This document shows positions 36,418 to 54,606 of a DNA stretch of 64,000 nucleotides, piece by piece. Each line of letters starts with the position of its first letter. Within the stretch, counting starts at the first letter, position 1. Location of the stretch: assembly GCA_044867525.1 (NCBI GenBank), contig JBIOVB010000107.1, positions 25,419 through 89,418 of the forward strand, written 5' to 3'. A program made the translations under genes and the position numbers. The stretch is from Acidimicrobiia bacterium. GTDB lineage: Bacteria > Actinomycetota > Acidimicrobiia > Spongiisociales > ZC4RG35. The notes beneath the pieces are model-generated. The model saw nothing but the letters and a program-made list of their open reading frames with translations, made no database searches and was not told the DNA's origin.

Positions 36418-36857
36418 TGCCGATAGAGGATGAACTGGGTACAGCGAAACAGCGCGAGCGCCCTCCCGGTCTTCTCATCGCTGACTGTCACGTCCCAAAC
36501 CTGCGTGCTGCGCCCGCCGTGTGCCATCCTGCCATTGGAGGCCAGAACTCCCTCGGTGAGGGTTGCCAGGTGATTGGACTTCAACTCCACCGTGGTGAAC
36601 CCGTAGGCCCCGTCGGGGAGATTGGCCACACACCCGTATCCGGCGGTTGTGTCGGCGAGGGCGATCACCGAGGCGGCGTGCAGATAACCGTTCGATGCCA
36701 GATGCCTCTCGCTGATCGGGCAGCGCATGGCCGAGCTCCCTTCGCCGAGCTCGACAAGCTCGATTCCGAGGACTCCCGGCAGGCGCTCGGCTCCGAGGCT
36801 CTCGAGGGTCCTTGCGAGCTCGTCCCGGTCCTTTGGGAAATGGGGCACCTCCGGCAT
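36414..36857 (-). CDS. Hotdog-fold thioesterase (PaaI/DUF4442-like)
   Basis: GYLHAASVIALADTTAGYG core. 4-nt overlap with the nitroreductase gene. Confidence 0.65.
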   Translation of the reverse strand: MPEVPHFPKDRDELARTLESLGAERLPGVLGIELVELGEGSSAMRCPISERHLASNGYLHAASVIALADTTAGYGCVANLPDGAYGFTTVELKSNHLATLTEGVLASNGRMAHGGRSTQVWDVTVSDEKTGRALALFRCTQFILYRQ

Positions 36858-36889
36858 TCCCCGGCGACCCTACCGGTAACGTCGCGAGC

Positions 36890-38608
36890 GTGAATGGCAC
36901 GGTGACACTTGCCGGCGATCGCTGGTCGGTAGGCCCGCGTCGGTTCTCCGATCCGGTCCGGATCTTGACTGCCACTGAGATCGACGGGGTCTTGGCCGCT
37001 TTGCGTGAGGCCGAAGCGGCCGCTCTCGGGGGCGCCTGGGTGGTCGGTTTCGTCTCCTACCAGGCGGCACCGGCCTTCGCTCCAAAGTTGTCGGTTCCGA
37101 AGCGACACCACGTCCCCGATCTCCCGCTTGCCTGGTTCGGCGTGTACGAGCGGGAGATCGACCCCGTACCCAATCCGCCCGGGTCGTTCCGCTTGGGGGG
37201 ATGGGAACCCGCGTTGACCGCAGCTGAGCACGCCGACCTCGTCGCCCGGATTCGGGAAGCGATTGCCTCCGGGGACAGCTACCAGGTGAATCTCACATTC
37301 CCGATGTGGGCAGAGCTATCCGGTGACCCGGGTCACCTCTTTGAGGCGATGATCCGAGCCCAACCTCACAGTCATGGGGCGTGGCTCGACCTCGGGGGGG
37401 CAAAGATCCTCTCGGTCTCCCCGGAGCTCTTCTTTGCTCGAGTCGGACGCGAGGTGACGACCCGGCCGATGAAGGGCACCGCACCACGTGGGAGGTCCAG
37501 TGTCGAGGACCTGTTGCGTGCCGAGGAGTTGAGCACCTCGGAGAAGGAGCGGGCCGGGAACATGATGATCGTCGACATGATTCGCAACGATCTCGGTCGG
37601 GTGGCCGAGGTCGGCTCGGTCGAGGTTCCGTCGTTGTTCGAGGTGGAACGCCATCCCACCGTGTGGCAGATGACATCCACGGTCACCGCTCGGCTCCGGG
37701 AGAATGTTGGCCTCGACGCATTGTTCGCCGCGATGTTCCCTTCGGGATCCGTGACCGGGGCGCCAAAGGTATCGACCATGGGTCTGATCGCCGACCTCGA
37801 ACCGGATGCCCGTGGGCCCTACTGCGGGGCCATCGGATATCTGGCACCTGGCGGGGGCTCGGCCGAATTCTCTGTCGCCATCCGCACCGGTGTAGTCCGG
37901 GACGGCTCGTTCAGCTATCACGTCGGGGGTGGCATCACCTATGACTCCGAACCATCTGTCGAGTACGAGGAATGTCTCTGGAAGGCGCTGGTCGTCAGCC
38001 AGAGCAGGGAGGTTCCCGACCTGCTGGAGACGATGCGCTACGACCCAGAAGCCGGGATCCCGATGCTGGACAAGCACGTTGCCCGATTGGCATCTTCCGC
38101 CGCTTACTGGGGGATAACGATCGATCCCGCTTCCATCGGCGATGCCCTTTCCGCAGTTGGGGGATCGGCTTCGCTCAGGGTGAGGCTCATAGTCTCCAAG
38201 TCGGGCGAGATCGAGGTGGGAATCGAACCGATGCCAGTGTGGGACGAGCCGGTGGGGCTCAGGATCTGGGAAGGTCGTGTCGACCAAGGCGAGCCGCGAT
38301 GGGCTCACAAGCTCGCCGACCGATCTCACTACCCGCTGCCCGAAGACGACGGGGTGGAGAGGGTGATGCTCAATCTCGATGGCGAGGTCACCGAGACCGA
38401 GCGTTCCAACCTCATGATGCGCATCGACGGAAAATGGCTCACCCCGGCACTCGATTCGGGCTGCCTACCCGGGATCTATCGCGGGCAATTGCTCGAGCAA
38501 GGAGAGGTCGCGGAGGCCTCGTTGGACCTCGACGACCTGCACCGGGCCGAGGAGATCGCAGTGACCAACGCGGTGCGAGGATGGAGGAAGGCAGTCCTCA
38601 TCGAATAA
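36890..38608 (+). CDS. Bifunctional aminodeoxychorismate synthase component I / aminodeoxychorismate lyase fusion (PabB-PabC)
   Basis: Chorismate-binding motifs (SPELFF, MKGTAPRG, MIVDMIRNDL, GAPK, GGGIT...EYEE) followed by a class-IV aminotransferase-like C-terminal domain. Confidence 0.75.
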   Translation: MNGTVTLAGDRWSVGPRRFSDPVRILTATEIDGVLAALREAEAAALGGAWVVGFVSYQAAPAFAPKLSVPKRHHVPDLPLAWFGVYEREIDPVPNPPGSFRLGGWEPALTAAEHADLVARIREAIASGDSYQVNLTFPMWAELSGDPGHLFEAMIRAQPHSHGAWLDLGGAKILSVSPELFFARVGREVTTRPMKGTAPRGRSSVEDLLRAEELSTSEKERAGNMMIVDMIRNDLGRVAEVGSVEVPSLFEVERHPTVWQMTSTVTARLRENVGLDALFAAMFPSGSVTGAPKVSTMGLIADLEPDARGPYCGAIGYLAPGGGSAEFSVAIRTGVVRDGSFSYHVGGGITYDSEPSVEYEECLWKALVVSQSREVPDLLETMRYDPEAGIPMLDKHVARLASSAAYWGITIDPASIGDALSAVGGSASLRVRLIVSKSGEIEVGIEPMPVWDEPVGLRIWEGRVDQGEPRWAHKLADRSHYPLPEDDGVERVMLNLDGEVTETERSNLMMRIDGKWLTPALDSGCLPGIYRGQLLEQGEVAEASLDLDDLHRAEEIAVTNAVRGWRKAVLIE

Positions 38609-43783: not shown

Positions 43784-45166
43784 ATGACCGACACGGTGGA
43801 TCGAAAGCAGTCGAGCCCGGGCGCATCCGGTCTCGATTCCTTCTTCAAGCTCTCCGAGCGTGGAACCTCGGTGAGCACCGAGATCCGCGCCGGGTTCACC
43901 ACTTTCCTGGTGATGGCCTACATCATCTTCGTCAACCCGAGCATCCTCAACTCCGACTTTGGCTTCGGTGATGCGGCAGCAGTGGCCGCGGCTACCGCCT
44001 TGGTGGCGGGCCTGCTCTGCATCCTGATGGGGGTTGTAGCCAATGTCCCGATTGCGCTGGCGGCAGGCCTGGGGATCAACGGGGTAGTCGCCTTCGGCCT
44101 CGTGCTTGGACAGGGCCTGACTCCGGCTGGGGCGATGGGCGTGATCGTGATCGAGGGCTTGGTCGTCCTCGCCCTGGTGGTGGTCGGGCTACGGGAGGCG
44201 ATCATGAACGCCGTCCCCATGTCGTTGAAGCGGGCAATCGGGGTCGGGATCGGGCTCTTCATCCTCTTCATCGGATTCGTCGATGGAGGCCTGATCGGGC
44301 ACGGCGACCCGGACGGTCCGGTGCCGGTAGCGTTCATCTTCCCGAACACCATGGGAGCATGGCTGACCCTGATCGGGCTTCTGATCACACTCATTCTCTA
44401 CGTGCGCAAGGTGCGTGGCGCTTTGGTGATCAGCATTCTCCTGACAGCGATAGTGAGCTTGATCATTGGTTTCACGGACGTCCCCGAACAACTGGCGACG
44501 ACTCCCAGCTTTGCCACTCTCGGTGACTTCGACCTGGGCAACGTCTTTACCCAGCTCGGTCTTGTCGCTGCTCTGTTGACCATATTCAGCCTCATGCTCA
44601 CCGACTTCTTCGACACCATGGGCACCGCGACGGCGATCGCCGAGCAAGCCGATCTCATCGACGAGGACGGGAAGGTTCCCGCCGTCGGCAGGTTGTTGTT
44701 CGTCGACTCGCTGGGTGCCGCCGCTGGTGGCGCCGCCGGGGTGAGCTCCAACACCAGCTACATCGAAAGCTCTGCTGGGGTCGCCGAAGGAGGCCGCACA
44801 GGTCTGACTGCCATCGTCGTCGGGTTGTTGTTTCTGGTGGCGATCTTCTTCACTCCGTTGGCTCCGTTGATCCCGCTACAGGCGACAGCACCGGTGCTGA
44901 TCCTGATCGGGTTTCTCATGGCGGGCTTGATCAAGGGAATCGACTTCGATGACATCGAGGAGGGCTTTCCGGCCTTGCTCACCATGATCCTCATGCCGTT
45001 GACGTTCAGCATCACCGTCGGCATCGGTGCCGGGTTTGTGATGTTCGTCCTGATCAAGTTGATCAAGGGCAAGTTCCGCGAGGTCCACCCCTTGATGTGG
45101 GTGGTGGCTGTGGCCTTCCTGATCTACTTCGGGCAGGCGGTGCTGGGGCAGGCAATCTCAGCCTGA
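43784..45166 (+). CDS. NCS2 family nucleobase (adenine/guanine/hypoxanthine) permease
   Basis: AzgA/PurP-like profile (GFTTFLVMAYIIFVNPSIL, FDTMGTATAIAEQA, NTSYIESSAGVAEGGRTGLTA). ATG after a GGGAGG RBS. Confidence 0.8.
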   Translation: MTDTVDRKQSSPGASGLDSFFKLSERGTSVSTEIRAGFTTFLVMAYIIFVNPSILNSDFGFGDAAAVAAATALVAGLLCILMGVVANVPIALAAGLGINGVVAFGLVLGQGLTPAGAMGVIVIEGLVVLALVVVGLREAIMNAVPMSLKRAIGVGIGLFILFIGFVDGGLIGHGDPDGPVPVAFIFPNTMGAWLTLIGLLITLILYVRKVRGALVISILLTAIVSLIIGFTDVPEQLATTPSFATLGDFDLGNVFTQLGLVAALLTIFSLMLTDFFDTMGTATAIAEQADLIDEDGKVPAVGRLLFVDSLGAAAGGAAGVSSNTSYIESSAGVAEGGRTGLTAIVVGLLFLVAIFFTPLAPLIPLQATAPVLILIGFLMAGLIKGIDFDDIEEGFPALLTMILMPLTFSITVGIGAGFVMFVLIKLIKGKFREVHPLMWVVAVAFLIYFGQAVLGQAISA

Positions 45167-45226
45167 ACTGGGGCTGATGCGGAGGGCGGCGTCGGGGACG
45201 CCGCCCTCGTCGCGTTAGGAGGACCG

Positions 45227-46069
45227 TTGATGCGGTTAACTTCGGTGGCAGTCATGGCTGAGCTCTCCGCCAGTGCACGCGCCAAGCTCCCCAACAGCGC
45301 TTTCGCGTATGTCGACGCTCAGGGAAACCGCCGGCTCCCAATCAATGACGAGGCCCACGTCCGCAACGCCCTATCCCGGTTCAATCAGGTCAAGTTCGAG
45401 AATGACGCCGCCCGGGAGCGGGCCTTTCGCAAGGTCCTGACCGCAGCGACCAAATATGGCATAGCTCCTGTCGGGTTTGTCGCCCGTCAGCTCAGGGAGG
45501 CGGCCGCCAGGGCGGGCTCGTCCGACCTTCCCTCCGGTCCGGTGACATTCCTCTTCAGTGACATCGAGGGCTCCACGGTCTTGGTCCAGCGGTTGGGAGA
45601 TGGCTATTCGGCGGTGCTCTCCACCGTCCAGGGTCTCATCGGCTCCGCGGTCGATGCCAATGGTGGCTACGAGGTGGATGCTCGTGCCGACGAGTTCTTC
45701 GCCGCCTTCGCCGAGGCCGGGTCGGCTTTGCAGGCCGCGATCGACGTGCAGCGGTCGATGCGAAGTCACGAATGGCCAGACGGGGTCGAAGTCCGGGTTC
45801 GCATCGGCTTGCACAGCGGGGAACCGGCCCGGACAGAGACCGGCTACGTCGGGTTGCCGGTGAACACCGGGGCCCGGGTCTGCGACGCCGGGCACGGGGG
45901 CCAGATCCTGCTTTCCGCAGCGACCAGAGAAGCCCTGGGGCCAGCCACAGGGGAGGCTCAGGTCGTAGAGCTCGGTGGATTCGAATTGAGGGGGTTGCCC
46001 GAGCCAGTGACGCTCTTTCAGGCAACGGTGCCCGACTTGCCATCCGTGTTTCCGGGGTTGCGAGTCTGA
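45227..46069 (+). CDS. Soluble class III adenylate/guanylate cyclase with an uncharacterised roughly 100-aa N-terminal domain
   Basis: Cyclase motifs FLFSDIEGST, RIGLHSGEP and VNTGARV. N-terminal domain has the conserved-looking block LPINDEAHVRNALSRFNQVKFEND. Its stop overlaps the next gene's start. Confidence 0.75.
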   Translation: MMRLTSVAVMAELSASARAKLPNSAFAYVDAQGNRRLPINDEAHVRNALSRFNQVKFENDAARERAFRKVLTAATKYGIAPVGFVARQLREAAARAGSSDLPSGPVTFLFSDIEGSTVLVQRLGDGYSAVLSTVQGLIGSAVDANGGYEVDARADEFFAAFAEAGSALQAAIDVQRSMRSHEWPDGVEVRVRIGLHSGEPARTETGYVGLPVNTGARVCDAGHGGQILLSAATREALGPATGEAQVVELGGFELRGLPEPVTLFQATVPDLPSVFPGLRV

Positions 46070-47478
46070 TGGCCCGGCGTCGGGTGGATCTCGCCGTGAG
46101 ACGCAGGCGTTCGCTCGCAATGCTGATCCTCGCGGTGATCGGCTTGGTCGCCATTCCGACAACAGCCGGCGCTGCCGCCCCAGTGCCCGGTCGTTTCGTC
46201 GACGATGACGGTCATCCAGGAGAGGTGTATCTGGAGTGGCTCGCCGACCTCGGTGTGGTCGAAGGCTGCAACCCTCCCGCCAACGACCGGATTTGCCCCG
46301 AAAGAACCCTGAATCGTGCGGAAGCAGCGAAGATCCTCATCGGGACCGGGCAGCGCACCGGGTTCCTCCCGGCGATCCCGGCCGACCTCCCCGACCGTTT
46401 CGTGGACGACAACGAGATCTGGGCGGGGAGCGCCTCGAGGCTGGCGAACTTCCTCGCCCAACTCGGGGTGGTTTCCGGTTGTGATCCCCCTGCCAATCGG
46501 AGGTTCTGCCCGACTCAGTCCCTGACCCGTGGCCAGGTGGCGAAGATGATCGTGAACGTCTTCGACCTGACCGCCCCCGACTCCTACGTCTCGCCGTGGA
46601 CCGACACCAAGGGCCGGTTCTACGACGAGTCGGCTCGGGTCGCCGCCTATCACCTGCTTTGGGACTCGAGCTCGGGTCGTTTCATCGGGGGGGAGGCCAT
46701 CGATCGCTCAGAGTTCGCCAGGACCGTGGTGCTGGCGGCAACCGGAAATGACCTTTGTCCTCCGACGCCGTTCACCGCGGCCCGGGTTGGCTCACTCGGC
46801 CGCAGGTTCCCCAACCAGTCGTTCACCGCTTACGCATATGACACTCGAACCGGTTGCGCCTACTGGATGCATCCCGACAACCGGTTACGCACCGCCTCGG
46901 TGTTCAAGGTCATGGTCATTGCCGGGACCTTGCTCGAAGCTCAGAACGATGAACGCGGGGTCTCCTCATGGGAGTGGGGACAGCTGGTGCCGATGATCAC
47001 CGAATCGGCGAACAACCCGGTGCGGGCCCTGTGGAGCCACTTTGGAGGCTCGCCCTGGTTCCGCCGCCAGGCGCAGTTGTACGGTCTCACCGAGACCAGC
47101 CCGGTCGGGGATTCCGGTGGGGTGTGGGGTCGTACCACGACTTCGGCCAAGGATCAGGCCGATCTGTTGCGTCAGGTGTTGAGAGGGGAGTGGGGTCCGC
47201 TGGAAGAGCCATATCGATCCCGGGCCTGGGACCTGATGACCTCGGTCGTCCCCTCACAGACCTGGGGCGTGACCGGTGGTGTGCCGGCGGGCTGGGTGGT
47301 GGCACAGAAGAACGGGTTTGCGGGTCACATCGCGAACTCGGTCGGTTTCGTGCGCCAGCCCGATGGCGAGGAGGGGTATGTGATCGCCGTGCTCAGCAAC
47401 GGATGGTCTGACTGGCATCGGGGCGTCCCGGTCGTGGACGAGATCTCGGGCTGGGTCTCCGGAAAGCTCGCTCGGTGA
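46069..47478 (+). CDS. Secreted protein: 2 SLH-like Cys-pair repeats plus a class A beta-lactamase/PBP-like serine hydrolase domain
   Basis: Signal peptide, then two repeats (GCNPPANDRICP...NRAEAAKIL; GCDPPANRRFCP...TRGQVAKMIV). SxxK (ASVFK), SxN (ESANN) and KxG (QKNG) motifs of the class A fold. Confidence 0.65.
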   Translation: MARRRVDLAVRRRRSLAMLILAVIGLVAIPTTAGAAAPVPGRFVDDDGHPGEVYLEWLADLGVVEGCNPPANDRICPERTLNRAEAAKILIGTGQRTGFLPAIPADLPDRFVDDNEIWAGSASRLANFLAQLGVVSGCDPPANRRFCPTQSLTRGQVAKMIVNVFDLTAPDSYVSPWTDTKGRFYDESARVAAYHLLWDSSSGRFIGGEAIDRSEFARTVVLAATGNDLCPPTPFTAARVGSLGRRFPNQSFTAYAYDTRTGCAYWMHPDNRLRTASVFKVMVIAGTLLEAQNDERGVSSWEWGQLVPMITESANNPVRALWSHFGGSPWFRRQAQLYGLTETSPVGDSGGVWGRTTTSAKDQADLLRQVLRGEWGPLEEPYRSRAWDLMTSVVPSQTWGVTGGVPAGWVVAQKNGFAGHIANSVGFVRQPDGEEGYVIAVLSNGWSDWHRGVPVVDEISGWVSGKLAR

Positions 47479-47496
47479 GCCCAAGGATCGAAGCAA

Positions 47497-48942
47497 GTGC
47501 CTGAGGTCGACCCCCACCTATTCGTGATCTTTGGCGGCACCGGTGATCTCGCCGAGCGCAAGCTGATTCCGTCCCTCTACCGGCTAATGGCGGAACAGGG
47601 TGCCACCGAAAAGTCCTTGGTTCTCGGTGTGTCCAGGAAAGACGTGGGCGACGATGCCTATCGGAAGTGGACTATCCACGCGCTGGCGGCGAGTGGCCAG
47701 TCCGGTGAGGACGTGGCCCGATGGTGCCAGTCGAATGTCTTTCAGCAGCAAGTCTCGGATCAGACAGAGGGCTACCTCGACCTCAGCAAGCGGGTAGAGG
47801 CGATCGAGTTGGAGCGCGGCCTGCCCGGGAACAGGGTCTTCTACCTGGCAACACCACCCCGGGCATTCCCGTCGACAATCGAGGGGCTGGGGAACGCGGG
47901 CTTGAACCAGAGTGCGGGGTGGACCCGGGTGGTGGTCGAGAAGCCTTTTGGCACCGATTTGGAAACGGCTCGTGAGCTGAATGAGATCCTGCTCGCGGGT
48001 TTCGACGAGTCACAGATCTTCCGCATCGATCATTACCTGGGCAAGGCGACGGTCCAGAACCTCCTCGGTTTCCGGTTCACCAACCCCATGTTCGAGCGGC
48101 TGTGGAATCGGGATCTGGTCGACCACATCGAGATCACGGTCGCCGAGGATGGTGGGATCGGTGATCGCGCCGGCTACTACGAGCATGCGGGAGTTGTGCG
48201 CGACATGGTCCAGAACCATCTCACCCAGCTTCTCGCCCTTGTCGCCATGGAGCCACCGAATGTCTTCGATGCTGACCGAATCCGTGACGAGAAGGTCAAG
48301 GTGATCAAGGCGATCGCACCGATCAAAACCCATGATGTGGTGTATGGCCAGTACGGCTCAGGAGGATCCGGCGGGTCAGTTCCCGGTTACCTGGAGGAGA
48401 GCGGGGTCTCCGCCGACTCCCTGACCCCGACCTTCGTGGGAATCAGGCTGTTCGTCGACTCCTGGCGCTGGCAGGGCGTGCCTTTCTTTCTTCGCACCGG
48501 GAAGCGGCTTCCCGGTCGCTTCACCCAGGTCGCGGTCACATTTCGCAAGCCGGCGTTGTGCATGCTTCATGGGCTGACAGACGATTGCGCCTATCCCGAC
48601 GTGCTCCTGATCATCCTCGAGCCGGACGAGGGATTCTCTCTCAGGTTCAACGTGCGCTCACCCAAGGACGAGGACAGGGTCGACTCCCAGGCGCTCCATT
48701 TTCGCTACTCGGATGTGTACGACGAGCTGCCTCCCGCCTACTTGACCCTGATTCTCGACATCCTCGAAGGTGATCAGACGCTGTTCGTCAGGGCAGACGA
48801 GGTCGAGGCCTCCTGGCACGTCTACGACCCGGTTCTGGCTCATATGCCGGCGCCGATCGTGTACGCGGCCGGTACCTGGGGCCCGGTTGCCATGGACCAG
48901 GGATTGCCGATTGGAGGTGAGGACTGGCGGCACCGGCGCTGA
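47497..48942 (+). CDS. zwf: Glucose-6-phosphate 1-dehydrogenase
   Basis: FVIFGGTGDLAERKLIPSLY NADP motif, RIDHYLGK, EKPFG. GTG start. Confidence 0.9.
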   Translation: MPEVDPHLFVIFGGTGDLAERKLIPSLYRLMAEQGATEKSLVLGVSRKDVGDDAYRKWTIHALAASGQSGEDVARWCQSNVFQQQVSDQTEGYLDLSKRVEAIELERGLPGNRVFYLATPPRAFPSTIEGLGNAGLNQSAGWTRVVVEKPFGTDLETARELNEILLAGFDESQIFRIDHYLGKATVQNLLGFRFTNPMFERLWNRDLVDHIEITVAEDGGIGDRAGYYEHAGVVRDMVQNHLTQLLALVAMEPPNVFDADRIRDEKVKVIKAIAPIKTHDVVYGQYGSGGSGGSVPGYLEESGVSADSLTPTFVGIRLFVDSWRWQGVPFFLRTGKRLPGRFTQVAVTFRKPALCMLHGLTDDCAYPDVLLIILEPDEGFSLRFNVRSPKDEDRVDSQALHFRYSDVYDELPPAYLTLILDILEGDQTLFVRADEVEASWHVYDPVLAHMPAPIVYAAGTWGPVAMDQGLPIGGEDWRHRR

Positions 48943-48950
48943 AGGAACGC

Positions 48951-50294
48951 TTGGCCTTGCAACGCAGACATGGGACACTCGCCCGAATGTTTCGCCGGTT
49001 GACGAGTCTGGTTGCCCTGACGGTGGTCGCATTCTCGGTTTTCGCGACCGCAGCTGCCTCTGCCGCTCTCCCCCCGGGCGGCACCTTTATCGATGATGAC
49101 GGTGACGTTCACGAGGGCTCGATCGAGGCCATATATGCCGCCGGCCTCACCGTCGGATGCGACGAGCGGGGCATCCGCTACTGCCCGGACATCGGGGTCA
49201 CCAGAGGGCAGATGGCGGCGTTTCTCGCTCGCGCTCTGAATCTTCCCGCATCCTCGGACGACCGGTTCACCGATGACGATCGCTCAGAGTTCGAAGGAGC
49301 GATCAACAAGGTGGCCGCCGCCGGGATCACAGTCGGCTGCAACCCTCCGGCCAACACGCGCTTCTGCCCCGATCGGCGGGTGACCAGGGCGGAGATGGCC
49401 ACGTTCCTGGTGCGGAGCTTCCCCAACCGGATGCCGGCCACCGCCCCGGACGCGTTCGTCGACGACGACGCCGACGTTCATCAAGGGAACATCAACCGCA
49501 TCGCTGCCGCCGCCATCACCCTGGGGTGCAACCCGCCGACCAACAATCGCTACTGCCCTGGTGACCATGTCACCCGGGGGCAGATGGCCACGTTCCTGAC
49601 CCGGGCCCTCGGGCTCCAGTCGGACAAGCCCCCACCCCAGCTCCCGATCGAGCGGGTGTCCAGCTTCACCACGTTCTACAGCTGCTGTGAGGACCGGGTG
49701 ATCAACATCAGGGCAATGGCCCGCCAGATCAACGGGTATGTGGTCATGCCCGGTGAGACCTTCTCGGTGGACCGGATTGCCGGGCCCCGCACCACCGCCA
49801 AGGGATACGTGCCGGCCCCATACATGCAGGGCGGCCAGGGCCATTGCTGCGCGGTGGGGGGCGGGGTGAGCCAGTTCGGCACCACGATGCACAACGCGGT
49901 GTTCTGGGGCGGCTACCGGGTGGTCGACCATCAGCCGCACAGCGGGTGGATCTCCCGCTATCCCCTGGGGATCGAGGCGACTCTCGTGTATTCGTCCATC
50001 GACTACAAGTTCATCAACGACACCGTGACCCCGGTCTACATTCGGGCTCTCGCCTCCTCCTCCTCACTCACCATCGAGTTGTGGGGAAACCAGGGCGGGT
50101 GGCGGGTCCGGGGCTCGCACCCCATCGGATCACGTAGCTCGTCGATCACGGTCCTCGATCGTGGAGGGTCGAACGCGAAGCGGGTCACGGCACGGGTCAC
50201 CGGCTCGGCGCCGGGATCGGTGAGGGTGATCCGGACCCTGACCCAAGGCGGGGTCGCAACTTCACAAGCCTGGAATTGGTTCTACTTGAGCTGA
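48951..50294 (+). CDS. Secreted protein: 3 SLH-like Cys-pair repeats plus a VanW-like domain
   Basis: Signal peptide. Three copies of F.DDD..H.G.I..I..AGIT.GCNPP.N.R(F/Y)CP....VTRG.MA.FL.RAL. C-terminal YSCCE...GGGVSQFGTTMHNAVFWGGY resembles the VanW family. Confidence 0.65.
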   Translation: MALQRRHGTLARMFRRLTSLVALTVVAFSVFATAAASAALPPGGTFIDDDGDVHEGSIEAIYAAGLTVGCDERGIRYCPDIGVTRGQMAAFLARALNLPASSDDRFTDDDRSEFEGAINKVAAAGITVGCNPPANTRFCPDRRVTRAEMATFLVRSFPNRMPATAPDAFVDDDADVHQGNINRIAAAAITLGCNPPTNNRYCPGDHVTRGQMATFLTRALGLQSDKPPPQLPIERVSSFTTFYSCCEDRVINIRAMARQINGYVVMPGETFSVDRIAGPRTTAKGYVPAPYMQGGQGHCCAVGGGVSQFGTTMHNAVFWGGYRVVDHQPHSGWISRYPLGIEATLVYSSIDYKFINDTVTPVYIRALASSSSLTIELWGNQGGWRVRGSHPIGSRSSSITVLDRGGSNAKRVTARVTGSAPGSVRVIRTLTQGGVATSQAWNWFYLS

Positions 50295-53559: not shown

Positions 53560-54606
53560 TCAGAGACCAAGCCCACGAGCCAGGAAGGCGGCCATCATCC
53601 CCCGGGTCACATACTGGTTGGGGCAGAACCGGTTGTTGTCGGGTGGGTTGCATCCCTGGGTGATCCCGGCGGCAGCGAGCTTCTCGATCGCCGACTCGAA
53701 CTGTGATCCGTTGTCGTCGATGAAGTCGACGCTGCCCTGATTGGTGAGACCGAGCCCGCGCACCAGGAAGGCGGCCATCATCCCCCGGGTCACGTACTGG
53801 TTGGGGCAGAACCGGTCATTGCGCGGCGGGTTGCATCCTTCGGTGATTCCGGCGGCGGCGAGCTTCTCGATCGCCCCTTCGAAGGTGGAACCATTGTCGT
53901 CGGTGAAGTCGACGTTGCCTTGGTCGGTGAGGCCGAGACCGCGCACCAGGAAGGCGGCCATCATCCCCCTCGTGACATAGTCATCGGGGCAGAACCGATC
54001 GTTACGGGCCGGGTTGCACCCTTGGGTGATCCCGGCATCGGCGAAGCGCTCGATCGCTCCTTCGAAGATCGAGGCGTCGTCGTCCCAGAACTCACCGGCG
54101 ATCGAGGGCGTGTAGGTGGAGGCCTGGAAGAAGAGCTGGGTGACCCAGGTCCCGCTGCCGTCGATGTAAACCCCGAAAGCACCAAAACGGTAGGCGGGGT
54201 TCATGATGTTGGCCCGATGCCCCGGTGAGTTCATCAACATCTGATGGACCCGGGAGCAATCGGCGTCGGGATCACCCCACATCGCGATGTTCTCGCCCCA
54301 GGTGTGGGCTCCGTCGGGGAGGATGCTGGCGCGTGCCGAAGTCGACATGTGGCGAAAGTCGTTGTTCCGCATCCACCGGGAGTGGCTACGAGCTCCGGGG
54401 AACACATCCGAGGCCATTGTGAGCGGGGCGAGGCCGGCGGACGCTCGCGATGCGTTCACGGAGGCCTCCAGGCAAACCTCGTAGGCACCAGGACCCTGGT
54501 CGGCACGGACGGATAGGGCCAGGGCGGGAGCGAAGGAGGACGCGACGAGTAGGACGACAACGGCCGATCGTCGAAGGATGATTTGGAGTCCGCTTTTGGT
54601 GGCCAC
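53560..54606 (-). CDS. Secreted protein: CAP/SCP/PR-1 domain plus 3 SLH-like Cys-pair repeats
   Basis: Signal peptide. CAP-like block (HMSTSARASIL...GENIAMWG...NSPGHRANIMNPAYRFGAFGVY...TWVTQLF). Then three 61-aa repeats (F.DDNGS.FEGAIEKLAAAGIT.GCNPP.NDRFCPNQYVTRGMMAAFLVRGLGL). Confidence 0.65.
   Translation of the reverse strand: MATKSGLQIILRRSAVVVLLVASSFAPALALSVRADQGPGAYEVCLEASVNASRASAGLAPLTMASDVFPGARSHSRWMRNNDFRHMSTSARASILPDGAHTWGENIAMWGDPDADCSRVHQMLMNSPGHRANIMNPAYRFGAFGVYIDGSGTWVTQLFFQASTYTPSIAGEFWDDDASIFEGAIERFADAGITQGCNPARNDRFCPDDYVTRGMMAAFLVRGLGLTDQGNVDFTDDNGSTFEGAIEKLAAAGITEGCNPPRNDRFCPNQYVTRGMMAAFLVRGLGLTNQGSVDFIDDNGSQFESAIEKLAAAGITQGCNPPDNNRFCPNQYVTRGMMAAFLARGLGL
53571..54119. repeat. 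Three tandem direct DNA repeats of 183 bp (about 85-90% identity), encoding the SLH-like repeats of the CAP protein
   Basis: The block ...gcgcaccaggaaggcggccatcatcccc... recurs at about 53571, 53754 and 53937. The track shows two near-identical spurious plus-strand ORFs (53519-53740, 53741-53980) caused by this periodicity. Confidence 0.8.

What the first reader, a model, noticed from the sequence alone, without database searches (positions are those of the whole stretch)
45227..47478. Soluble nucleotidyl cyclase with a novel N-terminal domain, translationally coupled to a secreted SLH/PBP-like protein
- The cyclase has intact class III motifs (FSDIEGST, RIGLHSGE, VNTGARV) but no membrane or classic sensor domain.
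- Instead it carries a roughly 100-aa N-terminal module with the block LPINDEAHVRNALSRFNQVKFEND, which I cannot assign to a known domain.
- Its stop codon overlaps the start of the SLH-like/class-A-beta-lactamase-like secreted protein (TGATG).

This implies a cAMP/cGMP (or other NMP) signal is co-expressed with a cell-wall-facing serine hydrolase or PBP-like sensor. It is a possible envelope-stress signalling pair, reminiscent of BlaR/PASTA-type logic but with different parts.
Basis: partly seen in the sequence, partly recalled or inferred. Interest (0 to 1): 0.55.

Follow-up and report, generated by a model that had tools for sequence, protein, structure and literature searches.

The report
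Orphan DUF6582 cyclase, accidental PBP neighbour
The gene is a real soluble nucleotide cyclase from a large, well-conserved but unstudied family whose N-terminal domain (Pfam DUF6582) has no known function and whose base pocket resembles cGMP- rather than cAMP-making enzymes. Its tight junction with the cell-wall enzyme gene next door is a recent local accident, not a signalling pair.

Summary
The sequence facts hold. A soluble class III cyclase of 271-280 aa (45227/45254-46069) is followed at once by a secreted SLH-like plus PBP-A/class-A-beta-lactamase-like gene (46069-47478), and the TGATG is there.

The interpretation does not hold.
- The N-terminal module is Pfam DUF6582: catalogued, function unknown.
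- The pairing is local. Of 80 species genomes with an orthologue, only 3 have the PBP-like gene nearby. In two of those a convergent DUF6855 gene lies between the two genes.
- In the nearest relative (88% identity) the genes are 17 nt apart, and the ATG of its TGATG opens a 6-codon dead frame.

What is really there is one member of a phylum-spanning family (434 confirmed matches in the species-genome collection) of stand-alone DUF6582-cyclases.
- Metal Asp112/Asp155, Arg192 and Arg217 are invariant.
- The adenine-specifying Lys/Asp pair is replaced by Asp151 (Glu in 3 of 80) and Gly206, a guanylyl-cyclase-like pattern. Arg153 is nearly invariant.
- DUF6582 is better conserved than the catalytic domain and has no solved structural relative.
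- DUF6582 also occurs as an 83-aa stand-alone protein, on a PP2C phosphatase, and inside phage prohead protease/scaffold proteins.

Best reading: an orphan homodimeric cyclase, probably not cAMP-specific, controlled or assembled through DUF6582.

The parts
45176..45216 (+). G+C-rich hairpin (perfect 12-bp core 45182-45193 / 45197-45208) between the purine-permease stop (45164-45166) and the cyclase ribosome-binding site. It is a likely terminator-like boundary without a T tract.
   Evidence: -39.6 kcal/mol, z = -3.1 against shuffles. The consensus terminator scan does not list it because there is no T run.
45217..45222 (+). AGGAGG Shine-Dalgarno-like hexamer, 7 nt before ATG 45230.
   Evidence: Direct reading.
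45254..46069 (+). DUF6582-class III nucleotidyl cyclase gene, 271 aa from the start that homologues share. Alternative starts are TTG 45227 (280 aa) and ATG 45230 (279 aa).
45254..45466 (+). DUF6582 domain (residues 10-80 in 280-aa numbering): a beta-hairpin (26-29, 35-38) and two helices (42-54, 60-76). Invariant F26, R35, L37, P38, D41, E42, H44, V45, R46, N47, A48, L49, R51, F52.
   Evidence: Pfam PF20223 31.0 bits against a threshold of 27.3. AlphaFold model pLDDT 88.5. Conservation in 80 genomes.
45470..45526 (+). Linker: third helix (residues 82-97, with invariant G83 and F84) and a short coil leading into the catalytic domain (the LPxG motif starts at residue 101).
45527..46036 (+). Class III cyclase catalytic domain (residues 101-270).
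   Evidence: PF00211 37.6 bits against a threshold of 21.9. Ma1120 E 7e-20. Foldseek match to Ma1120 E 9e-15, TM-score on target 0.87.
45560..45562 (+). Asp112, first metal-binding Asp (FSDIE).
   Evidence: 80/80 Asp. Aligns with the FTDIE Asp of Ma1120.
45677..45691 (+). Asp151-Ala-Arg153-Ala-Asp155. Asp155 is the second metal-binding Asp. Asp151 occupies the adenine-specifying Lys position (Ma1120 K101). Arg153 is nearly invariant.
   Evidence: D155 80/80; position 151 is D in 77 and E in 3; R153 78/80.
45842..45844 (+). Gly206, at the position of the second base-specifying residue (Ma1120 D157).
   Evidence: Ungapped alignment to Ma1120. G in 79/80.
45863..45877 (+). Asn213-Thr-Gly-Ala-Arg217, the transition-state Asn/Arg pair.
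   Evidence: R217 80/80. Position 213 is N in 35 and H in 45 of 80.
46067..46071 (+). TGATG: the cyclase stop overlaps the first candidate ATG of the next gene.
   Evidence: In L001 the TGATG is present but its ATG opens a 6-codon dead frame.
46069..47478 (+). Secreted SLH-like plus PBP-A/class-A-beta-lactamase-like protein (469 aa; alternative starts GTG 46096 and ATG 46120). Signal-peptide-like N-terminus. SLH-like repeats at 46195-46344 and 46399-46563. Penicillin-binding-type domain at about 46756-47475, with S277-V-F-K280 (46897-46908), S313-A-N315 (47005-47013) and K414-N-G416 (47308-47316). This is a neighbour, not a functional part of the cyclase system.

Best explanation
The gene encodes a stand-alone cytoplasmic class III nucleotidyl cyclase of an uncharacterised, widely conserved family, built as DUF6582 - short helix - catalytic domain.

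Shown:
- The fold and all residues needed for two-metal catalysis are present and invariant across phyla.
- The family has no conserved gene partner.
- The junction with the PBP-like gene is lineage-specific.

Inferred:
- The base pocket is not that of an adenylyl cyclase. It has an acidic residue (Asp151, rarely Glu) where adenylyl cyclases have Lys, Gly206 where they have Asp, and a nearly invariant Arg153 two residues on.
- An acid that accepts hydrogen bonds from N1-H/N2-H, plus a small second residue, is the guanylyl-cyclase solution. I therefore expect GTP (product cGMP), or at least a non-ATP or promiscuous substrate. I put about 35-40% on a GTP preference.
- The N-terminal DUF6582 domain is more conserved than the catalytic domain and always sits at the extreme N-terminus, even when another domain is inserted before the cyclase. 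I take it to be the module that holds or positions the dimer and receives the regulatory input, through a conserved polar face (R35, D41, H44, R46, R51).
- Whether that input is a small ligand, a protein partner or self-association is not known.

The downstream secreted PBP-A-like protein is an independent cell-wall enzyme. It came to abut the cyclase after loss of an intervening convergent DUF6855 gene.
For: Cyclase identity:
- PF00211 above threshold.
- Ma1120 E 7e-20 and Rv1900c E 7e-12 by sequence.
- The AlphaFold catalytic domain (block-mean pLDDT mostly 84-96, apart from a low-confidence loop at residues 202-206) superposes on Ma1120, GRESAG4 and Rv1900c.

Catalytic residues across 80 genomes:
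- D112, D155, R192 and R217 are 80/80.

Base pocket:
- The alignment to Ma1120 is ungapped. It places D151 at K101, G206 at D157, N213 at A164 and R217 at R168. The roles of those Ma1120 residues are given in PMC4215837.
- That paper states that guanylyl cyclases have Glu plus C/S/T/H/A/G at these positions, and that Cya2 has E-G.
- PMC7384201 reports that the Glu-N1/N2 contact is the main determinant for GTP.
- Position 151 is D in 77 and E in 3 of 80; G206 is 79/80; R153 is 78/80.

Family breadth:
- The top 120 protein hits all carry DUF6582 and/or cyclase Pfam domains; nearly all are 268-297 aa and most carry both.
- 434 confirmed matches in the species-genome collection (one genome per species); the 80 kept span Acidimicrobiia, Gaiellaceae, Dormibacterota, Methylomirabilota, Chloroflexota and Armatimonadota.

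No partner:
- The most frequent neighbour is a convergent DUF6855 gene, in 21/80 loci. Nothing else exceeds 25/80.

Adjacency:
- The PBP-like gene is present in L001, L005 and L009 only.
- In L005 and L009 DUF6855 lies between it and the cyclase.
- In L001 there is a 17-nt spacer.

DUF6582:
- Mean identity is 71% against 57% for the catalytic domain.
- It stays N-terminal in long forms that have an extra domain of about 110 aa.
- It also occurs on a PP2C phosphatase, in phage prohead protease/scaffold proteins, and as an abundant 83-aa stand-alone protein in ordinary chromosomal contexts.
Against: - There is no biochemistry. Asp is one methylene shorter than the Glu of proven guanylyl cyclases. 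The Tyr that boosts GTP use in Cya2 is Ala216 here. Class III specificity is known to be hard to read from two residues (PMC4215837).
- The transition-state Asn is His in 45 of 80 homologues, so the chemistry may deviate from the textbook.
- The role of DUF6582 is inferred only from position, conservation and the company it keeps. Its model has no structural relative, and its orientation relative to the catalytic domain was predicted with low confidence.
- The PP2C fusion is a single sequence on a 1-kb contig.
- Co-transcription of the cyclase with the PBP-like gene in this organism is still likely, because the gap is at most 51 nt. A strain-specific link cannot be excluded by comparison alone.
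Confidence: 0.6

Rival explanations
1. The cyclase and the secreted PBP-like protein form a translationally coupled envelope-stress signalling pair. The PBP-like domain senses beta-lactams or muropeptides and the cyclase emits the signal.
For: - TGATG junction.
- SxxK/SxN-bearing PBP-A-like domain with cell-wall-binding-type repeats.
- The same gene order in the closest relative L001.
Against: - The pair is absent from 77 of 80 orthologous loci.
- It is split by a convergent gene in L005 and L009.
- The overlap is not kept in L001.
- The overlapping start is one of three candidates, and gene callers disagree on it.
- Overlaps are common in this window (10 of 36 pairs).
- One protein is cytoplasmic and the other exported, with no membrane-spanning link.
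- SLH-like secreted proteins are frequent here: three within 10 kb.
Confidence: 0.04
2. An ordinary cAMP-forming adenylyl cyclase. The Asp/Gly pair is tolerated, as non-canonical pairs are in some mycobacterial enzymes, and DUF6582 is merely a constitutive dimerisation handle.
For: - The closest solved relatives, Ma1120 and Rv1900c, are adenylyl cyclases.
- Public annotation calls the family 'class 3 adenylate cyclase'.
- Ma1120 mutants with E/G still make cAMP (PMC4215837).
Against: - Lys and Asp, conserved in adenylyl cyclases across species (PMC4215837), are both absent in essentially all 80 genomes.
- The substitution is to the opposite charge, and it is conserved across phyla.
- The polar surface residues of DUF6582 are invariant, which is more than a simple dimer handle needs.
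Confidence: 0.28
3. A phage-sensing or defence cyclase (Pycsar-like or new). DUF6582 is shared with phage prohead protease/scaffold proteins, and here it would let the host enzyme detect capsid assembly and emit a cyclic nucleotide alarm.
For: - DUF6582 is embedded in phage prohead protease/scaffold proteins: 245 viral contigs carry it, and 70 of 80 sampled ORFs are 300 aa or longer.
- The D-x-R-x-D layout puts conserved residues at the same offsets from the second metal Asp (-4 and -2) as the CTP-specifying R142 and Q144 of the pyrimidine cyclase EaPycC (PMC11224242).
Against: - The PADLOC PycC model gives only a 13.9-bit local match.
- There is no effector gene next to it in any locus.
- The gene sits in a stable housekeeping synteny block (permease-cyclase-DUF6855-zwf/corA) and is 52-88% identical across phyla. 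Both are unlike mobile, fast-evolving defence genes.
- Stand-alone DUF6582 genes lie in non-phage contexts.
Confidence: 0.05
4. A catalytically dead cyclase-like scaffold.
For: The transition-state Asn is replaced by His in 45 of 80 homologues, and the base pair is non-canonical.
Against: - Both metal Asp residues, Arg192 and Arg217 are invariant across phyla.
- The window protein keeps Asn213.
- Ma1120 is active with Ala at that position (PMC4215837).
Confidence: 0.03

Closest known systems
Ma1120 (Mycobacterium avium), a minimal class III adenylyl cyclase (PDB 4WP3, 5D0E)
   Same: Best sequence match (E 7e-20; 32-34% identity in the structural superposition) and best structural match for the catalytic domain. 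Same ungapped spacing of all six functional positions. Both are soluble.
   Different: Ma1120 has Lys101/Asp157 and makes cAMP. This protein has Asp151/Gly206, close to the engineered Ma1120 K101E/D157G variant that gained guanylyl cyclase activity. Ma1120 has Ala at the Asn position; this protein keeps Asn. Ma1120 has no DUF6582.
Cya2 (Synechocystis), a bacterial guanylyl cyclase (PDB 2W01)
   Same: An acidic residue plus Gly at the two base-specifying positions (E-G in Cya2 according to PMC4215837; D/E-G here). Weak but significant sequence match (E 0.004).
   Different: Asp rather than Glu in 77 of 80 family members. The Cya2 Tyr that favours GTP is Ala216 here. The N-terminal architecture differs. 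The residue-level alignment to Cya2 itself was not inspected.
Rv1900c / LipJ (M. tuberculosis), lipase-like domain plus class III cyclase (PDB 1YBT)
   Same: The catalytic domain is related (E 7e-12). The best NCBIfam hit is the LipJ model, though far below its cut-off.
   Different: The N-terminal domain differs (alpha/beta hydrolase versus DUF6582). From memory, not checked here (the paper is not held), Rv1900c also has non-canonical base residues and a His at the Asn position. If so, it parallels the N/H dimorphism seen in this family.
Rv1264 (M. tuberculosis), a soluble cyclase with an N-terminal autoregulatory domain (PDB 1Y10/1Y11)
   Same: Works alike in outline: a small cytoplasmic enzyme in which an N-terminal domain and a connecting helix set the geometry of the catalytic dimer. 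The catalytic domain matches.
   Different: The N-terminal domains are unrelated in sequence. No sensing role has been shown for DUF6582.
PBP-A Tll2115 (Thermosynechococcus), a penicillin-binding protein close to class A beta-lactamases (PDB 2J7V), for the downstream gene
   Same: Best solved relative of the downstream protein (E 1.6e-8). SxxK and SxN are conserved. There is no Glu at the place of the class A general base (Ser aligns with Tll2115 position 158).
   Different: KNG instead of KTG. It also has two N-terminal Cys-containing SLH-like repeats and a region of about 65 aa with no family match.
Pycsar pyrimidine cyclases (PycC)
   Same: Same fold class. Specificity residues sit 4 and 2 positions before the second metal Asp in EaPycC (R142, Q144, D146), the same places as D151 and R153 here.
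   Different: No meaningful match to the PycC profile (13.9 bits). No adjacent effector. Stable chromosomal synteny.

Membership tests
Class III nucleotidyl cyclase (PF00211) | Profile match above the curated threshold, and the cyclase fold | tested here: met
   37.6 bits against a threshold of 21.9. Foldseek E 9e-15, TM-score on target 0.87-0.90 to Ma1120.
Class III nucleotidyl cyclase (PF00211) | Two metal-binding Asp residues | tested here: met
   D112 and D155 are invariant in 80 of 80 genomes and align with the Ma1120 metal Asp residues.
Class III nucleotidyl cyclase (PF00211) | Transition-state Asn and Arg, four residues apart | tested here: met
   N213 and R217 are present in the window protein. 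R217 is 80/80. Position 213 is N in 35 and H in 45 across the family.
Class III nucleotidyl cyclase (PF00211) | Dimeric enzyme that cyclises an NTP | not testable with these tools
   Needs a purified protein assay and a measurement of oligomeric state.
Adenylyl cyclase (ATP-specific class III) | Lys and Asp at the two base-specifying positions | tested here: not met
   Asp151 (D in 77, E in 3 of 80) and Gly206 (79/80) occupy the positions of Ma1120 K101 and D157.
Guanylyl cyclase (class III, Cya2-like) | Glu at the first position and a small or Cys-type residue at the second | tested here: inconclusive
   Acidic plus Gly fits the pattern, but Asp rather than Glu is found in 77 of 80. The Tyr of Cya2 is Ala216 here.
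DUF6582 (PF20223) | Profile match above the curated threshold | tested here: met
   31.0 bits against a threshold of 27.3, residues 24-79. 49-60% identity to stand-alone DUF6582 proteins.
Pycsar (PycC cyclase plus effector) | Match to the PycC profile and an adjacent cNMP-binding effector gene | tested here: not met
   13.9 bits over 39 residues only. No conserved neighbour in 80 loci.
   Adjacency in 3 of 80 loci, 2 of them interrupted by a convergent gene. The overlap is not kept in the 88%-identical relative.
Penicillin-binding / class A beta-lactamase superfamily (downstream gene) | Profile match, and the SxxK, SxN and KTG motifs | tested here: met
   PF13354 54.1 bits against a threshold of 22. 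S277-V-F-K280 and S313-A-N315 are invariant in 4 orthologues. The third motif is K414-N-G416, a variant of KTG.
Class A beta-lactamase proper (downstream gene) | Omega-loop general-base Glu (Glu166) and the curated NCBIfam score | tested here: not met
   Ser aligns with the position that is Leu in wild-type Tll2115 and Glu in its engineered variant. The NCBIfam bla_class_A score is 35 bits against a cut-off of 200.
SLH domain (downstream gene) | Profile match above the curated threshold | tested here: inconclusive
   19.4 bits against a threshold of 20.8. Weak match to the Sap SLH structure 3PYW (E 0.008). The paralogous repeats in the VanW-like protein pass (29.7 bits).

The most novel reading that the evidence does not exclude
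DUF6582-cyclases are a large, phylum-spanning family of bacterial cyclases that make cGMP (or another non-cAMP cyclic nucleotide). They are present in uncultured soil and freshwater lineages (Acidimicrobiia, Chloroflexota, Dormibacterota, Methylomirabilota). They are switched by a small, extremely conserved domain that bacteria also use alone and that phages build into their head-maturation proteins.
Probability: 0.25. Interest if true: 0.65.

Novelty: new variant of a known kind. Interest (0 to 1): 0.38.

Why it matters
The proposed envelope-stress pair is not real, so nothing follows from it. The cyclase itself is worth noting for two reasons.
- If the acidic/Gly pocket does mean GTP, this family would add hundreds of species to the very short list of bacteria with cGMP signalling. 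Those species belong to abundant, mostly uncultured soil phyla.
- DUF6582 is a small domain with near-invariant polar residues and no structural relative. It appears in three settings: alone, on signalling enzymes, and in phage prohead protease/scaffold proteins. Finding out what it binds would explain all three at once.

Both questions can be tested directly with one recombinant protein.

Tried and rejected
- Structural relatives of DUF6582.
  - Sequence search of the PDB with the single domain and with a 147-sequence profile found nothing.
  - Foldseek of a confident model (pLDDT 88.5) against the PDB gave nothing below E = 1.
  - Against BFVD it gave only weak hits to unnamed phage proteins, best E 7.5e-3.
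- The full-length AlphaFold model gave the N-domain only pLDDT 42-61, so the inter-domain geometry was not used.
- Literature: no paper in the held library mentions DUF6582 or PF20223, and none links Acidimicrobiia with cAMP. The Rv1900c structure paper and the text of the actinobacterial cyclase survey were not available.
- Rfam found no RNA family anywhere in the window, so there is no riboswitch ahead of the cyclase.
- The consensus promoter scan found nothing in 44900-47700.
- There is no second DUF6582 or cyclase copy in the window.
- Defence-system reading: the PADLOC scan was negative apart from a 13.9-bit local PycC match.
- Conserved-partner search: all-against-all clustering of ORFs in 81 loci found no co-oriented neighbour conserved beyond close relatives.
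- The upstream purine-type permease is adjacent in 11 of 80 loci (a twelfth locus shows only a 27-residue fragment of the match), all close Acidimicrobiia relatives. It is separated from the cyclase by a strong hairpin. I treated this as synteny, not function.
Full report
1. THE OBSERVATION

Its TGA (46067-46069) shares a base with an ATG (46069-46071), and that ATG opens a frame running to 47478.

Pfam finds Guanylate_cyc (37.6 bits, threshold 21.9, residues 104-259) in the first protein. It finds Beta-lactamase2 (54.1 bits) plus a sub-threshold SLH match in the second. The cyclase has no hydrophobic stretch. The second protein starts with an Arg-rich, then strongly hydrophobic segment typical of an export signal.

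Three caveats apply.
- All aligned homologues begin their conserved sequence at the Met encoded by ATG 45254. A strong AGGAGG nevertheless precedes ATG 45230, so the true start is one of these.
- The start of the second gene is ambiguous (ATG 46069, GTG 46096 or ATG 46120). Public gene calls on two contigs with the identical cyclase give 469 aa (overlapping) and 452 aa (51 nt downstream).
- With longest ORFs, 10 of 36 same-strand neighbour pairs in this window overlap. A one-base overlap is the local norm, not a signal.

2. THE N-TERMINAL DOMAIN IS CATALOGUED BUT UNEXPLAINED

Residues 24-79 match Pfam DUF6582 (PF20223) at 31.0 bits against a threshold of 27.3. Nearly all close homologues carry the same precomputed assignment. 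No paper in the held library mentions DUF6582 or PF20223.

With an alignment of 147 sequences the domain folds confidently (pLDDT 88.5) into a beta-hairpin followed by three helices. Nothing in the PDB resembles it by sequence or by Foldseek. BFVD gives only weak hits to unnamed phage proteins.

The domain keeps varied company.
- The short cyclase form seen here.
- A longer cyclase form with an extra domain of about 110 aa between DUF6582 and the catalytic domain. One of these also has a C-terminal DinB/MDMPI_N domain.
- One PP2C (SpoIIE-type) phosphatase, a single sequence on a 1-kb contig.
- Phage head-maturation proteins: Mu-like protease I, S78 prohead protease, XkdF-type protease and scaffold-like coiled coils. 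In 245 viral contigs the domain is almost always embedded in proteins of 300-670 aa, sometimes twice.
- A very abundant stand-alone protein of about 83 aa: 6069 hits at E of 0.001 or better among 8000 scored candidates. Three examples lie in ordinary, non-phage chromosomal surroundings with no shared neighbours.

3. THE CATALYTIC DOMAIN

The nearest solved relatives are Ma1120 (E 7e-20), trypanosomal GRESAG4, Rv1900c/LipJ and Rv1264. The AlphaFold catalytic domain superposes on them, with a TM-score of 0.87-0.90 on Ma1120.

The alignment to Ma1120 is ungapped through both functional segments. Using the residue roles established for Ma1120 (K101 and D157 bind the base, A164 stands at the usual Asn position, R168 is the transition-state Arg; PMC4215837), the equivalents here are D151, G206, N213 and R217, with metal ligands D112 and D155.

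I extracted the orthologue from 80 species genomes and aligned them. The counts out of 80 are:

| Position | Role | Residues found |
|---|---|---|
| D112 | metal ligand | D 80 |
| D155 | metal ligand | D 80 |
| R192 | presumed phosphate-binding Arg (RIGLHSG motif; my inference) | R 80 |
| R217 | transition-state Arg | R 80 |
| 151 | first base-specifying position (Lys in adenylyl cyclases) | D 77, E 3 |
| R153 | two residues before the second metal Asp | R 78 |
| G206 | second base-specifying position (Asp in adenylyl cyclases) | G 79 |
| 213 | transition-state Asn | N 35, H 45 |

The machinery for catalysis is therefore intact, but the adenine-reading Lys/Asp pair is absent throughout the family.

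- PMC4215837 states that guanylyl cyclases carry Glu at the first position and C, S, T, H, A or G at the second, and that bacterial Cya2 has E-G.
- PMC7384201 concludes that the Glu contact to guanine N1/N2 is the main determinant, with the second residue mostly providing shape.
- An acidic residue plus Gly is thus the guanylyl-cyclase pattern, with the reservation that Asp is shorter than Glu.
- In the pyrimidine cyclase EaPycC the specificity residues R142 and Q144 lie 4 and 2 residues before the metal Asp146. These are the same places as D151 and R153 here. However, the PADLOC PycC profile gives only a 13.9-bit local match.
- My inference is that an Asp acceptor plus an Arg donor suits a base with an N-H next to a carbonyl (G or U) better than A or C, and that Gly206 leaves room for a purine.

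4. THE GENE PAIR

A scan of one genome per species gave 434 confirmed matches, and I kept the 80 best with 6-kb flanks. They come from metagenome-assembled genomes of Acidimicrobiia, Gaiellaceae, Dormibacterota, Methylomirabilota/Rokubacteria, Chloroflexota and others, at 52-88% identity.

tblastn with the window's neighbours shows the PBP-like gene in only three loci: L001, L005 and L009. ORF clustering over all loci shows no co-oriented partner conserved beyond close relatives. The commonest neighbour is a convergent 139-aa DUF6855 gene that abuts the cyclase stop in 21 loci.

Within the Acidimicrobiia block the order is permease - cyclase - DUF6855 (convergent) - then variously the PBP-like gene, zwf or corA.
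- In L005 and L009 the PBP-like gene lies beyond DUF6855.
- Only the window and L001 lack DUF6855, so that the PBP-like gene abuts the cyclase.
- Even in L001 (88% identical cyclase, 91% identical PBP-like protein) the ATG of the TGATG runs into a stop after six codons. The real start follows 17 nt later, behind its own GGGGAGGG.

The junction is therefore a recent product of gene loss in one lineage. SLH-like secreted proteins are also common here: the VanW-like protein at 48951-50294 and a CAP-domain protein at 53560-54606 carry the same kind of repeat.

5. THE DOWNSTREAM PROTEIN

Its closest solved relative is PBP-A Tll2115 (E 1.6e-8). S277-V-F-K280, S313-A-N315 and K414-N-G416 are invariant in four orthologues.

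At the position where the two deposited Tll2115 sequences differ (Leu or Glu), this protein has Ser. From memory, that is the place of the class A general base. The NCBIfam class A model scores 35 bits against a cut-off of 200.

It is best described as a wall-anchored PBP-A-like serine enzyme (a likely DD-peptidase-type protein), not a beta-lactamase. Nothing ties it to the cyclase.

6. SURROUNDINGS

Upstream lie an ABC transporter, AzlC/AzlD and a purine-type permease. Downstream lie zwf, a VanW-like protein and corA. A strong hairpin (-39.6 kcal/mol, z = -3.1) separates the permease from the cyclase. Rfam finds nothing in the window. This is an ordinary chromosomal neighbourhood.

7. MECHANISM AND VERDICT

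Most likely (0.6 overall) this is an orphan cytoplasmic class III cyclase that works as a homodimer. Its pocket leans away from ATP and toward GTP; I put 35-40% on that preference. DUF6582 would assemble or regulate the dimer through its invariant polar face.

Three things point to a module that does more than dimerise:
- it is more conserved than the catalytic domain (71% against 57% mean identity);
- it stays at the extreme N-terminus when another domain is inserted;
- it recurs on enzymes and assemblies that depend on oligomerisation.

What it binds is unknown.

The rivals are:
- a plain adenylyl cyclase (0.28);
- a phage-sensing cyclase (0.05);
- a dead enzyme (0.03).

8. NOVELTY

The architecture is visible in public annotation, but no member has been studied. 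No characterised cyclase has this N-domain or an Asp/Gly pocket. I rate it a new variant of a known kind, of moderate interest, and I rate the specific claim of a signalling pair as not supported.

Noticed in passing
L002-L025 (for example L006:6842-7261, minus strand); absent from the window and from L001: A convergent 139-aa DUF6855 gene (PF21619, 228 bits) abuts the cyclase stop, 2-33 nt away in 18 loci and 0.1-1.7 kb downstream in three, in 21 of 80 loci in all. Its loss in the window lineage created the cyclase/PBP-like junction. Its function is unknown.
   Followed up: partly
Viral loci L084-L163; proteins P0271, P0342, P0366, P0371, P0375, P0382: DUF6582 is a recurrent domain of phage prohead protease/scaffold proteins (Mu-like protease I, S78, XkdF-type). 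It can be N-terminal, internal or duplicated, and was found on 245 viral contigs. Its role in head assembly is undescribed.
   Followed up: partly
P0266 (326 aa, JGI contig of 1053 bp): DUF6582 fused to a SpoIIE/PP2C phosphatase that its source names RsbU. This would be a second signalling output for the domain, but it is a single observation on a short contig.
   Followed up: no
P0268, P0310, P0330, P0245: Long-form DUF6582 cyclases carry an extra domain of about 110 aa with no family match (GRLVIELG...DPTLxVLHWSD...) between DUF6582 and the catalytic domain. P0245 adds a C-terminal MDMPI_N/DinB-like domain.
   Followed up: no
P0386-P0503; loci L081, L082, L083: Stand-alone DUF6582 proteins of 83 aa are very abundant (thousands of clusters). 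They sit as isolated genes in unrelated chromosomal contexts, and are 49-60% identical to the cyclase N-domain.
   Followed up: partly
window 46195-46563, 48951-50294, 53560-54606 (minus strand): Three secreted proteins within 10 kb carry SLH-like repeats: a PBP-A-like, a VanW-like and a CAP-domain protein. In the first two I read a conserved Cys pair in the repeats (GCxPPxNxRxCP). This suggests a lineage-typical wall-anchoring module.
   Followed up: no
window 45176-45216: A perfect 12-bp G+C hairpin without a T tract lies between the permease and the cyclase. The consensus terminator scan missed it.
   Followed up: partly
window 36812-38608: A single ORF fuses a chorismate-binding (PabB-like) domain to a class IV aminotransferase (PabC-like) domain.
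   Followed up: no
L001-L004, L006, L007 and others (record titles): Several metagenome-assembled genomes whose loci are syntenic with, and 65-88% identical to, Acidimicrobiia loci are titled 'uncultured Acidobacteriota bacterium'. These are probably mislabelled records.
   Followed up: no
L060 and L062 (same genome, CAWIVT01): One Chloroflexia genome carries two DUF6582-cyclase paralogues on different contigs.
   Followed up: no
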